64,000 nucleotides of DNA from Eledone cirrhosa (lineage: Eukaryota), in NCBI GenBank assembly GCA_964016885.1, contig OZ024760.1, positions 26,226,001-26,290,000 on the forward strand, read 5' to 3'. A program made the translations under genes and the position numbers. The first letter of the stretch is position 1. Every line of letters starts with the position of its first letter. This document shows, piece by piece, positions 12,414-62,800 of this stretch. Under the pieces are notes generated by a model. The model did not search any database, had not been told where the DNA came from, and saw only the letters and a list, made by a program, of their open reading frames with translations.

Positions 12414-12648
12414 AACGAAGGAAATGTGGTAAGGAATCAGGTGGACCGTAACGCACCAAAGTACTCAATACTTGGGGTAGTAGAGTGGGTAATAGGAACC
12501 AGTAAGACCCCGACGGCTGAGCTCAAGCCGTTTCGACGGCTAATTCTGGACAAATTGACGGCTAATTCTGGACAAATTCTGAACAATTGAGTCCAGAATT
12601 AGCCGTCGAAACGGCTTGAGCTCAGCCGTCGGGGTCTTACTGGTTCCT
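12414..12648. mobile_element. PLE pseudo-LTR fold-back mini-element, family C (also 20447-20560, 27736-27893, 41578-41744, 48878-49091, 60125-60240)
   Basis: Shared GAAACGGCTTGAGCTCAGCCGTCGGGGTCTTACTGGTTCCTATTACCCACTCTACTAC...TTCCTTCGTT; most copies have an inverted short arm and (TA)n flanks. Confidence 0.8.
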
Positions 12649-13799
12649 ATATATATATATATGTATATATAAACGTTTGTAGTTGTAAGGCCAAGACAAT
12701 GCAGGTATGGATATAGAATATAAATGCAAATGCAAAAGATATTGTTGACAATTAGTCTTTTACCTTAAATTTATTTAAATATCCTTAATTTTCGAAATAA
12801 TATCTCTTCTTCGGAGGGAAGTAAAGTGGTTAATCCAGTGTTCTAAATAGCTTGCCAAGTCAACTACAAACTACAAACGTTTATACCTCATTACACAATG
12901 CTTCAAGTGAACTATAACTTCCTCCTTATAAATATATATATATATATATATATATATATATATATATATATATATATATATATATATGTGTGTGTGTGTA
13001 TGTATTATGTGTGTGTGTATGTTTTATGTGTGTGTGTGTGTATGTATGTATGCATGTGTATATATATATATATGTGTGTGTGTGTATGCGTGTGTGTATG
13101 CGTGTGTGTGTGTGTGTGTGTGTGTGTGTGTGTGTGCGTGTGTGCGTGCGTGTGTTAAGTATTTCCGTAGAAAATGCAAAGGGAAAAAGAGTGCTCACAT
13201 ATATATGTGTGTGTGTGTGTATGTATTATGTGTGTGTGTGTATGTATGCATGTATATATATATATATATATATATATGTGTGTGTGTGTATGCGTGTGTG
13301 TGTGTGTGTGTGTGTGTGTGTGTGTGTGCGTGTGTGCGTGCGTGTGTTAAGTATTTCCGTAGAAAATGCAAAGGGAAAAAGAGTGCTCATATATATATGT
13401 GTGTGTGTGTGTATGTATTATGTGTGTGTGTATGTATTATGTGTGTGTGTGTATGTATGTATGCATGTATATATATATATATGTGTGTGTGTGTATGCGT
13501 GTGTGTGTGTGTGTGTGTGTGTGCGTGTGCGTGTGTGCGTGCGTGTGTTAAGTATTTCCGTAGAAAAGGCAAAGGGAAAAAGAGTGCTCTACGTAGAACA
13601 CTCTTTTTCCCTTTGCCTTAGACAGAGCTATTTAATTATGTAATAAACTACAAAATATAGTTATTCCATTACCGAAAGTTTCAAGAAACAAGATGATTCT
13701 GGCAAGAAACATTCAGTTTGATTGCCAGACAAAATAATTATCAATATATATATATATATATATATATCAATATATATATATATATATATATATATACGT

Positions 13800-14000
13800 A
13801 GGTCCCGGGTTGAGTCGGGGATAACCACAGTAAGTAAGGTACTCAATACATGGCAGAGCAAAATTTTTTTATTTTATAGAAGGAGCTTCTACAGGACTAG
13901 TACTGTTTCATTCTGATGAAATCTTCAAGAAGCCCTTGAGCTTCTTGAAGATTTCATCTGAATGAAACAGTACTAGTCCTGTAGAAGCTCCTTCTATAAT
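13800..14000. mobile_element. PLE pseudo-LTR fold-back, family A (also 4040-4160, 21140-21255)
   Basis: About 60-bp inverted arms; YTGAWGA...GAAACAGTWCTAGTC hammerhead-like motif; TTGAGTAC motif; (TA)n flanks. Confidence 0.75.
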
Positions 14001-58871: not shown

Positions 58872-59830
58872 TGTGAAGGCCAAGGGCACTGTCCCTTCAT
58901 CCAGATTTAACTGACGTCAATGTCTCTAGGATCAAGGGCCTGTGAAGGCCAAGGGCACTGTCCCTTCATCCAGATTTAACTGACGTCAATGTCTCTAGGA
59001 TCAAGGGCTTGTGAAGGCCAAGGGCACTGTCCCTTCATCCAGATTTAACTGACGTCAATGTCTCTAGGATCAAGGGCTTGTGAAGGCCAAGGGCACTGTC
59101 CCTTCATCCAGATTTAACTGACGTCAATGTCTCTAGGATCAAGGGCTTGTGAAGGCCAAGGGCACTGTCCCTTCATCCAGATTTAACTGACGTCAATGTC
59201 TCTAGGATCAAGGGCTTGTGAAGGCCAAGGGCACTGTCCCTTCATCCAGATTTAACTGACGTCAATGTCTCTAGGATCAAGGGCTTGTGAAGGCCAAGGG
59301 CACTGTCCCTTCATCCAGATTTAACTGACGTCAATGTCTCTAGGATCAAGGGCTTGTGAAGGCCAAGGGCACTGTCCCTTCATCCAGATTTAACTGACGT
59401 CAATGTCTCTAGGATCAAGGGCTTGTGAAGGCCAAGGGCACTGTCCCTTCATCCAGATTTAACTGACGTCAATGTCTCTAGGATCAAGGGCTTGTGAAGG
59501 CCAAGGGCACTGTCCCTTCATCCAGATTTAACTGACGTCAATGTCTCTAGGATCAAGGGCTTGTGAAGGCCAAGGGCACTGTCCCTTCATCCAGATTTAA
59601 CTGACGTCAATGTCTCTAGGATCAAGGGCCTGTGAAGGCCATGGGTACTGTCCCTTCCCACAGACCTAAGCCACACCAATGTCTCTAGTATCAGAGGGGC
59701 ATGTGAAGGCCGAGAGCACTGACCCTTCCTCCAGACCTAATCCACATCAATATCTCTAGTATCAGAGGGCCTTTGAAACCCACGGGCACTGTCCCTTCCT
59801 CCAGATCTACGAGATATCAATATCTCTAAT
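58872..59830. repeat. 69-bp minisatellite: 11 near-perfect copies (58872-59630) plus about 3 diverged copies
   Basis: Unit TGTGAAGGCCAAGGGCACTGTCCCTTCATCCAGATTTAACTGACGTCAATGTCTCTAGGATCAAGGGCY; stop codons in all six frames. Confidence 0.92.
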
Positions 59831-62800
59831 ATCATCATTGGAACAATTTGATAAAGGAGATAAATACGTTGCTTCATATATATATATATATATATATATA
59901 TATATATATATATATATATATATATATATATATATATATATATATATATACATATATATATATATATATATATATATATATATATATATATATATATATA
60001 TATATATATATATATATATATATATATACATATACATGTATATATATACAATATATATACATTATATATACATATATATATATATATATATATATATTAT
60101 ATATATATATATATATATATATATAACGAAGGAAATGTGGTAAGGAACCAGGTGGACCATAACGCACCAAAGTACTCAATACTTAGGGTAGTAGAGTGGG
60201 TAATAGGAACCAGTAAGACCCCGGGGTCTTACTGGTTCCTATATATATATATATATATATATATATATATATATATATATATATATATATATATATATAT
60301 ATATATATATATATATATATATTATATATATATATATATATATATTTATATATATATTATATATATATATATTTATATCTTTATATATTTATATATATGT
60401 ATATATATATATTATATATATATATATGTATATATATATATATATTGTATATATATGTATATGTATATGTATATGTATATGTATATGTATATGTATATAT
60501 ATATATATGTGTATATGTATATATATATATATATATATATATATATATATATATATATATATATATATATATATATATATATGATATATATATATAATGA
60601 AATAAACAGATGTATGTAAGTATATATGTACGTACGTATTTATGTACGTGTGTATGTATGAGTGTATGTATATGAATGTATGTATGTATGGATGTGTGTA
60701 TGCATAGAAGTATGTATGCATATATGTATGTGGATATGTATGAACATGTGTATGTATGTAATATGCGTCTATCTATCCAGCTCCCTTCCTCCTTCGCTCT
60801 CTCTCTATATATACGCAAAAGGGATATTTAATTTGTTGTTAATTCAACAAATATAAATGTTTATAACTGATTCAGAGCACTCAACAAGTTTTCTGGCGAA
60901 TAATATTCAATGATATTAAATAAATGGAAACTATATTTATAAAACCATATTCATTCTATTATATATATTTCAAGGTTACCAAAACCTTGGTACGCCCTCT
61001 TCAGATAAAATAAAAAGTTTGTTTTATAAATATTGACATAACCAGGAATAGGATCTTAAGGAATAACTTGAACCGTTAAGATCTCCTTCCTGGATATGTC
61101 AATATTTATAAAACAAACTTTGTATTTTATCTGATGAAAGCGTACCAAAGTTTTAGTACCCTTGAAATATGTATAATAGAATAAATATGGTTTTATAAAT
61201 ATAGTTTCTATTTATTAATATCATTGTTAATATACACCAGAAAACTGTCGAGTGCTTCGAATCAGTTATAAACATATATATATATTTGTTGAATTACCAA
61301 CAAATTAAATATTCCTTTGCTCTTTGCTTATACACACACACACACACACACACACACACACATATATATATATATATATATATATACTAGGTTTCACATT
61401 GCAGGTTTATTTAAATAATTGTCAATGTGAAACACAGGATAACGATTCAAGGTTTAGTTACTAATAAAATATGTATATATATATATATATATATATATAT
61501 ATATATATATATATATATATAGTGTATATATATATATATATATATATATATATATATATATATATATATATATATATATATATATGTATATATATATATA
61601 TATATATATATATATATATATATATAGTGTATATATATATATATATATATGTGTGCGTTTATATATATGTTTATATATATATATATATATATATATATAT
61701 ATATAGATAGATAGATAGATATATTTCTTTATTAGCCACAGGGGCACAAAAGAAGGGGACAAATACAAAGGGGGAAGTTTACATACAATAAAAACGTGTA
61801 AAATGTTATCACAGATGGAATTTAAAAGTTAGTCGATTTTCCCCAATAGAGGGAGACAGTTTATATGGGTAACACAGACCCACGAAAAAAAATGTGCAAC
61901 CCTCATCTCCAGGAGTACGAAGAGCTTGTATGTATATGTATATGTATATGTATATATATATATATATATATGTATATATATATATATATATATATATATG
62001 TGTGCGTTTATATATATGTTTATATATATATATATATATATATATATATATATATATATATATATATATATATATATATATATAGATAGATAGATAGATA
62101 GATAGATAGATAGATAGATAGATACATGTATATATATATATATATATATATATATATATATATATATATATATATATATATATATATACATATATAAATA
62201 TATATATATATATATTTAGCGGCGAAACATCGGTTCGGGATACATTTACAGCTGACGATGGAAACTCCTTTCTTCCTTTCTCCTCCTGCTCCGTCCTAAC
62301 CACCATCCTAAACCTTGTTGGGCAACGATGGTTGCCCAACAAGGTTTAGGATGGGCAACCATCGTTGCCCTTTTGTTCAACACTGACAAAGGAACGGTGA
62401 ACGTGTTTCAAGCTTATTAGCTATCGTCAGCATCGTATACCTTCCTGTCAGATGATTGAACGTTTACAAATAAACCGAACATTATAATAAATGTTCGGTA
62501 AACCCATACGTACATATATATATGTGTGTGCATGTATGTATATATATACATACTACTGTACGTGTGTATACATATATGTATGTACGTATACATACTTATA
62601 TTTAATTATCAGCCGTACTAAGAGTGAGAAATTTCATTTCATTTCATTCTTTTCCATATATATATATATATATATATATATATATATATATATATATATA
62701 TATATATATATATATATATATATATATAATATTTTAATTTTAATTATATCTCATATAAAATATTACAACTGGCTTTCCGCAAAATACATATAGTTAGCAC

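What the first reader, a model, noticed from the sequence alone, without database searches (positions are those of the whole stretch)
12414..60240. Family C: both outer ends fixed to the base, only the fold-back point varies
Seen: in five fold-back copies (12414-12648, 27736-27893, 41578-41744, 48878-49091, 60125-60240) the long arm ends at ...TTCCTTYKTT(AT)n. The short arm always ends at ...TTCCT(AT)n, although the copies diverge in sequence and their centres differ in length. Both arms copy the same region, so this is not simple L1-style twin priming, which inverts without duplicating. Inference: two defined priming sites on the RNA, or two 3' isoforms, each captured by an AT-ending DNA 3'-OH.
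Basis: partly seen in the sequence, partly recalled or inferred. Interest (0 to 1): 0.75.

Follow-up and report, generated by a model that had tools for sequence, protein, structure and literature searches.

The report
Penelope retroelement mini-palindromes from one RNA
These short mirror-image repeats are the ends of a very abundant Penelope-type jumping gene: one arm stops at a fixed point and the other 80 bases further on, and both inner ends tend to stop at the same two places, which suggests that both sides of a DNA break likely copy one RNA until they run off its front end.

Summary
Observation confirmed. Family C is the end region (pseudo-LTR plus an 80-nt 'tail') of a Hydra-clade Penelope-like retroelement. 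Intact 717-719-aa RT/GIY-YIG copies exist elsewhere in G000. Of 28,439 exact core matches, 13,016 stop at the short end and 12,359 run into the tail. Both ends are internal UAU sites in the RNA. A PLE tail made by two internal RT start sites is published (PMC11167929). The one-long/one-short pairing was noted earlier by this scan on other DNA of this genome. 57 of 65 long arms reaching -50 stop by -63, at an initiator-like TCA+1TTT. A second stop at -16 is the predicted cut of a U3-A8 hammerhead, and there both arms stop together (20 of 50 small-centre copies; window copy 5). The mini-palindromes are most likely run-off cDNAs from a single RNA. No RNA data were available. A new member of a known kind, with testable mechanistic detail.

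The parts
12415..12647 (.). Copy 1: inverted pair of PLE ends; tail 12415-12494, long arm to -59 (12554), centre with a re-copied 22-nt block, short arm 12586-12647 (-61 to 0)
12415..12494 (-). 80-nt tail of copy 1 (sequence between the two inferred RT start sites), with the AGT-N3-GAGTACT motif
27737..27894 (.). Copy 2: short arm 27737-27773 (0 to -36, minus strand), long arm 27768-27894 (plus strand), tail 27815-27894; centre at the GCCGT-CGAA-ACGGC mini-hairpin
41579..41743 (.). Copy 3: tail plus long arm with -5..-40 missing, both arms reach -61, short arm 41682-41743
48880..49090 (.). Copy 4: diverged subfamily, the same variants on both arms; long arm to -58, short arm from -60, filler at centre
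60126..60239 (.). Copy 5: both arms end at -16 (or -17 with a 2-nt overlap), the predicted hammerhead cut site; tail 60126-60205
20444..20549 (+). Sixth, degenerate solo long arm (-38 to about +68, about 80% identical), followed by TA repeats

Best explanation
Family C copies are the pseudo-LTR ends of a Hydra-clade Penelope-like retrotransposon, and they are likely made when the element's protein cuts a (TA)n tract and both DNA ends prime reverse transcription on one RNA at two internal UAU sites 80 nt apart. Positions are counted from the last base of the short end (0). Step 1 (shown): the parent is a 3.54-kb unit with one RT/GIY-YIG ORF, found in partial and full tandems; both ends lie inside its pLTR/5' UTR. 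Step 2 (inferred; shown in vitro for another PLE): both strands are nicked and extended, one from UAU at +1 and one from UAU at +81, each 21-23 nt before a twice-present AGT-N-GAGYACT motif. Step 3 (inferred): most templates begin only about 61 nt upstream, probably at the transcription start (initiator-like TCA+1TTT), so both cDNAs run off after about 61 and 141 nt. A minority of templates begin at -16, the predicted self-cleavage site of a U3-A8 hammerhead. Step 4 (inferred): the two cDNA 3' ends are trimmed and end-joined, with microhomology, filler, stutter or re-copying, which gives the variable centre. Sometimes the RT jumps back onto the RNA downstream. Read-through RNAs from tandems give the rare long palindromes and full-length copies.
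For: Parent and Hydra motifs. Fixed ends; also seen as TA loose ends in independent contigs. Pairing: long-short 73, long-long 1 (tail-anchored); long-short 22, short-short 0 (short-anchored); 16, 0 and 0 (core-anchored). Same source for both arms: 58 of 60. Wall: 57 of 65 long arms at risk stop in -50..-63 and 0 of 8 in -64..-110; of 100 arms reaching -60, 49 stop by -63, 3 by -69 and 48 pass (by eye). 100 of 100 arms with an extra A at -60 stop there (by eye). Among 17 independent body-bearing tandems the upstream pLTR stops in the wall only once, and 15 reach -99 or beyond, so the wall is not an obligatory RT block. Hammerhead fold with core UUGA(G/U)AA; U3-A8 is a known PLE variant (PMC4209133). 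Both arms at -16: 16 with non-template filler plus 4 blunt, of 50 loci, against 3 at -17..-19 (by eye); L320 stops at -16 twice and L318 once. Jumps from -56..-60 back to +172..+298: L300/301, L303, L322, L324, L325.
Against: The transcription start is inferred from DNA alone. Position -61 is also the 3' side of a predicted UUUC tetraloop, so RNA cleavage there fits too. The test for a cap-templated C was inconclusive (unambiguous C about 14, G about 14, A about 7 of 100, by eye). The hammerhead fold is not more stable than shuffles (z -0.95), shows no compensatory changes in 16 close copies and has no Rfam match. Some subfamily copies have C3 with A8, which should not pair. 2 of 60 copies have arms of different subfamilies, so two RNAs or later conversion occur at times. 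PAc starts at sites not homologous to the cut DNA (PMC11167929), whereas here 3 nt match; 3 other TAT sites nearby are not used as the fixed ends. Samples are the first listed places on contigs C1-C2, not random draws.
Confidence: 0.7

Rival explanations
1. Same two priming sites, but a protein dimer carries two RNAs and each DNA end copies its own RNA.
For: A PAc dimer is predicted (PMC11167929). 2 of 60 copies have discordant arms, one at three sites (L173). Subfamily concordance could come from cis preference or from subfamilies active at different times.
Against: It does not explain near-strict long-short pairing. It also does not explain both arms stopping together at the rare -16 end: roughly 180 loci (20/50 of 442) while only about 2 of 100 long arms end there. 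My rough estimate is about 2% observed against about 0.04% if independent; the denominator is estimated, not counted.
Confidence: 0.12
2. The -50..-63 wall is a structural RT stop or an RNA cleavage in the hammerhead stem II loop, not a transcription start; the rest of the model stands.
For: -61 follows a predicted UUUC loop; the cap-C test was inconclusive; stops are spread over -43..-63.
Against: Tandem-derived long copies pass this site (15 of 17). The RT has already opened the stem when it stops. Stutter and jumps cluster at -56..-61.
Confidence: 0.25
3. Fold-back or inherited palindrome: one cDNA primed at the long site snaps back, or a ready-made palindromic master is copied, with later central deletions.
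For: Many centres are near-perfect palindromes; 27 of 50 small-centre copies join through the internal TGAGCTCA palindrome; one body-bearing copy has a mini-palindrome at its 5' end (L299).
Against: Short arm deeper in 32 of 73 pairs, by 10 nt or more in 17, up to -576 against -5 (L216). 23 of 74 centres carry filler. 42 distinct centres in 48. Only 1 of 17 body-bearing tandems starts with a mini-palindrome. No shared rare mutations.
Confidence: 0.08
4. A MITE-like DNA transposon, or two polyadenylation-type 3' isoforms.
For: Small size, inverted arms and high copy number.
Against: Arms grade continuously into a retroelement 3' UTR and RT ORF. Both ends are read through in tandems.
Confidence: 0.02

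Closest known systems
Hydra clade of C-terminal EN+ Penelope-like elements (Craig et al. 2021, PMC8557442; e.g. Hydra-1_Obim)
   Same: Single RT + C-terminal GIY-YIG ORF; RW[K/R], DKT, CxCX5C, no CCHH, CxxC and CxH; (TA)n flanks; hammerhead near the end; tandem pLTRs, inverted 5'-truncated copy and a tail at one end.
   Different: A different family from Hydra-1_Obim (different hammerhead and UTRs, by eye). Unit 3.5 kb with a 3' UTR over 1 kb, against 'generally <3 kb'. Tail 80 nt against 30-40 bp. Core UUGANAA instead of CUGANGA. Copies are mostly 110-240-bp palindromes.
PAc / Poseidon_Ac internal initiation (Frangieh et al. 2024, PMC11167929)
   Same: Two internal RT start sites define the tail; both target strands are cut and extended; AT-rich target; hammerhead upstream of the start sites; 5' truncation of the template shortens the product.
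   Different: There the sites lie about 111-118 nt inside the ORF and are not homologous to the target; here they lie in the 5' UTR (ATG at +174) at UAU. That paper found no RNA-seq ends at the hammerhead cut, and a term search found no discussion of inverted or palindromic products; here genomic arms pile up at the predicted cut.
L1 twin priming (recalled, not from a call)
   Same: Both target ends prime on one RNA, and the cDNAs are joined head to head.
   Different: L1's second primer lands at variable upstream sites and inverts without duplication; here both sites are fixed and the same stretch is copied twice.
Animal non-LTR retrozymes (bioRxiv 10.64898/2026.07.22.740005, abstract read)
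   Same: Non-coding, PLE-derived, hammerhead-linked; a 299-bp tandem derivative of Family C exists (L331).
   Different: The window copies are not tandem monomers and carry only the 3' half of the hammerhead.

Membership tests
Penelope-like elements (EN+) | Single ORF with RT and C-terminal GIY-YIG nuclease | tested here: met
   717-719-aa ORFs; YRDD and YIGLT motifs; clear by-eye homology to published Hydra proteins. Pfam gave no hit for the query and only weak RVT_1 (1 of 42) and GIY-YIG (2 of 42) hits among homologues; PDB search empty.
Penelope-like elements (EN+) | Partial or full tandems forming pLTRs; inverted 5'-truncated copy; tail at one end | tested here: met
   L033; four-unit array with a short inverted end and a long direct end; 292 tandem junctions.
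Penelope-like elements (EN+) | Tail of 30-40 bp | tested here: not met
   80 nt. The length is typical, not defining; other window families show 59-137 nt unpaired (single copies).
Hydra clade | RWK motif and DKT for DKG | tested here: met
   RWR at 27 and DKT at 109; RW[KR] in 107 of 120 and DK[TS] in 119 of 120 homologues.
Hydra clade | CxCX5C linker, no CCHH, CxxC and CxH around the conserved E and N | tested here: met
   CNCPDRSIC, CNLCSEE, CKH; CCHH-type pattern in 0 of 120.
Hydra clade | (TA)n insertion preference | tested here: met
   TA runs at the outer ends of nearly all copies; empty sites not seen.
Hydra clade | Canonical hammerhead in the pLTR | tested here: inconclusive
   Three-way fold present but core is U3-A8 or C3-A8; no Rfam hit; arms pile up at the predicted cut; activity not assayed.
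Hydra clade | Monophyly with reference Hydra RTs | not tested
   No tree with the published references was built; placement rests on motifs and by-eye comparison.
MITE / DNA transposon | Fixed TIRs at both termini, no link to an RT element | tested here: not met
   Asymmetric ends; arm length from 17 nt to about 1,860 nt, continuous with the RT element.

The most novel reading that the evidence does not exclude
A Penelope RNP primes both ends of a TA break on a single RNA at two motif-marked sites and copies to that RNA's physical 5' end. Tens of thousands of mini-palindromes would then record the element's transcription start (-61) and in vivo cleavage by a U3-A8 hammerhead (-16), and would show that ribozyme-cut RNA serves as an insertion template.
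Probability: 0.5. Interest if true: 0.65.

Novelty: new member of a known kind. Interest (0 to 1): 0.45.

Why it matters
How PLEs make their tandem and inverted structures, and what their hammerheads do, are stated open questions (PMC8557442 discussion passages; PMC11167929 found cleavage dispensable in vitro and no RNA-seq ends at the cut). A family with over 10,000 two-armed copies and intact source ORFs gives exact predictions: start sites +1 and +81, RNA 5' ends at -61 and -16, one RNA per insertion. It also explains why MITE-like palindromes dominate such a genome, and why full-length copies need read-through of a tandem.

Tried and rejected
DNA search of G000 with the tail found nothing because common words are skipped; patterns were used instead. 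One pattern was mistyped and gave 0 matches (corrected). One script had an off-by-one error and found no short arms (corrected); six over-extended alignments were replaced values before the counts. The first pair count used a misaligned structure (corrected). In one search the printed positions are one lower than those used here. Rfam: no hammerhead match. Pfam and PDB: no hit for the ORF. Sequencing runs: no RNA holder listed; contigs laid show presence and TA loose ends only, and their summed depth is not a copy number. The cap-templated C test was inconclusive. The idea that the short end is the hammerhead cut was rejected: the cut is predicted 17 nt upstream. Folding -59..+233 gave no structure beyond shuffles (z -1.08). 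Literature: 'Penelope + twin priming + inverted + GIY-YIG' gave 0 papers; searches listed no paper describing inner-end walls, judged from listings and the passages read. Subscription papers (e.g. Arkhipova 2006, Evgen'ev and Arkhipova 2005) and the Frangieh supplements (Fig. S2, File S1) were not seen and may bear on novelty.
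Full report
Numbering: 0 is the last base of the short end (...TTCC); plus numbers run into the tail on the element's sense strand. Counts marked 'by eye' were read from the first 100 listed matches, all on contigs C1-C2, so they are not random samples.

1. Observation. The five copies, their (TA)n flanks and both end sequences are as described. The extension is 80 nt. Copy 3 lacks -5..-40 of its long arm, and a sixth degenerate solo arm lies at 20444-20549. In G000 a 21-nt core occurs 28,439 times with 0 control matches: 13,016 end at the short site, 12,359 continue into the tail and 3,064 match neither. 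Of 100 tail-anchored copies, 94 end at +80/81, 4 earlier and 2 read through. Independent contigs show TA loose ends at both sites.

2. What it is. Longer copies run from the arm through a 3' UTR of over 1 kb into an ORF. L033 reads: TA run, inverted 1,248-nt copy with the short end, 240-nt pLTR, tail, 5' UTR, ORF, 3' UTR, pLTR, tail, TA run. An array on C1 holds four 3.54-kb units, at least three with intact 717-719-aa ORFs, with one short inverted end and one long end. The protein has RWR, DKT, YRDD, CxCX5C, no CCHH, CxxC and CxH, and so do most of 120 listed homologues. These are the Hydra-clade marks in PMC8557442 (section 11 read), and the ORF matches Hydra-1_Obim by eye (supplement). Pfam and PDB gave no hit for it, and no tree with references was made. 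That paper describes inverted 5'-truncated copies and a 30-40-bp tail at one end (passages). PMC11167929 (abstract, main text and part of methods read) shows that the tail is the interval between two internal RT start sites and that both target strands are extended.

3. Both ends are internal in the RNA. 292 exact junctions run from the tail into the 5' UTR, with the ATG at +174. Both ends fall at TAT (+1 and +81), while TAT at +25, +45 and +131 is not used as a fixed end. AGT-N1-3-GAGYACT occurs only twice in the unit, at +23 and +101, in 24 and 28 of 30 tandem loci. I did not confirm a hairpin for it.

4. Pairing and origin of the arms. Inverted pairs were long-short 73, long-long 1, other 3, unpaired nearby 23 (100 tail-anchored); long-short 22 (one with a deleted tail), short-short 0, unpaired 8 (30 short-anchored); 16, 0, 0 and 10 unpaired (26 core-anchored after removing duplicates). 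Arms share the subfamily in 58 of 60 classifiable pairs (chance 19.3); rare variants are shared 0 times and lie on one arm 26 times. The short arm is deeper in 32, the long in 29, equal in 12 of 73. 23 of 74 centres carry filler and 42 of 48 readable centres differ. This argues for two cDNAs made anew at each insertion from one source, not for snap-back or DNA descent. The two discordant copies count against strict single-RNA use.

5. The centre is walled. Long-arm stops per base are 0.003-0.011 from +22 to -49, 0.063 in -50..-63 (57 of 65) and 0 in -64..-110 (0 of 8) (six alignments corrected). Of 100 arms reaching -60, 49 stop by -63, 3 by -69 and 48 pass (by eye). All 100 listed arms with an extra A at -60 stop there (by eye), and A-runs and re-copied blocks occur at this point, as in window copy 1. 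Position -61 is the A of TCATTT, which fits the initiator consensus TCAKTY (recalled). D. virilis Penelope has an internal promoter (PMC2377424, passages). Against an obligatory RT block: in 17 independent body-bearing tandems the upstream pLTR ends in the wall once, at +10 once, and reaches -99 or beyond 15 times. Five small insertions show the cDNA leaving at -56..-60 and resuming at +172..+298. Against the start-site reading: -61 also follows a predicted tetraloop, and added C was not clearly enriched.

6. A second stop at the hammerhead site. The sense strand folds into a three-way junction with core UUGA(G/U)AA, GAAA and a GUC cut before -16; 94% of cells pair but there is no covariation, z is -0.95, and Rfam is silent. 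U3-A8 is a described PLE variant (PMC4209133, passages); some copies have C3 with A8. Among 50 listed palindromes with centres of 24 nt or less (442 in the genome), 16 have both arms ending exactly at -16 with non-template filler, 4 join directly like window copy 5 (also readable as -17 with a 2-nt overlap), 3 end at -17..-19 and 27 join through the stem III palindrome (by eye). The pattern required both arms to reach -16, so shorter ones were not seen. L320 stops at -16 twice and L318 once. Only about 2 of 100 long arms end there, so joint stopping is far above independence on a rough estimate. This is the strongest sign that both arms copy one RNA, and indirect evidence that the ribozyme cuts in vivo.

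7. Mechanism. Shown: parent element, two fixed ends, one-of-each pairing, shared source, two inner stops. Inferred: TA-tract cutting, UAU-aided priming from both ends, one RNA copied twice (needs an RT that leaves the RNA intact; lack of RNase H in PLEs is recalled), run-off at a start site or ribozyme cut, end-joining.

8. Novelty. The element is a new family of a known clade, and the fixed ends are the known tail. Earlier notes of this scan on other DNA of this genome already report long-short pairing, priming from both ends, single-RNA hints and twin signals. The inner walls at -61 and -16 and the jump-back copies did not appear in the 16 notes shown or in the papers read (searches; bioRxiv 10.64898/2026.07.22.740005 abstract and term search; PMC8969392 passages; supplement of PMC8557442 parts 2 and 52 of 59). 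Interest 0.45.

Noticed in passing
window 13797-13998, 4040-4163, 28782-29161, 60969-61273, 21296-21759, 4601-4903, 282-399: Other TA-flanked asymmetric palindromes with 59-137 nt unpaired at one end; all 17 window matches of YGAGT(A/G)CT lie 25-80 nt before a TA run. Similar motifs end the published Hydra-1_Amil and Hydra-2_Amil consensus.
   Followed up: partly
window 51682-52683 (-) and 46123-47601 (+): Fragments of other Hydra-type ORFs; the first is 41% identical to the Family C protein; the second was judged by eye.
   Followed up: partly
window 7363-10801 (-) and 54129-54704 (-): A broken LINE-like RT element (RVT_1, E 5.6e-19) and a weak GIY-YIG fragment.
   Followed up: no
window 1400-3656: A 2.26-kb TA-flanked segment with nested, 100% identical inverted arms up to 879 nt.
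   Followed up: no
L330:3160-6731 in minus-strand numbering (G000:C1, about 91.489-91.493 Mb): About 65 tandem copies of a 55-bp ORF piece sit exactly at the junction between the inverted arm and the tandem array, possibly reiterative RT copying.
   Followed up: no
L331 (G000:C2:356029300-356033500): Seven-unit 299-bp array of -115..+202 with a shortened stem II and whole hammerhead core: a retrozyme-like derivative of Family C.
   Followed up: partly
L041, L193, L234 and many rows: Hammerhead core C3-A8 in some subfamilies and U3-A8 in others; could be loss followed by compensation, order not tested.
   Followed up: partly
L034:6534-9600: A Family C long arm joined head to head to the ORF of an unrelated PLE family.
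   Followed up: no
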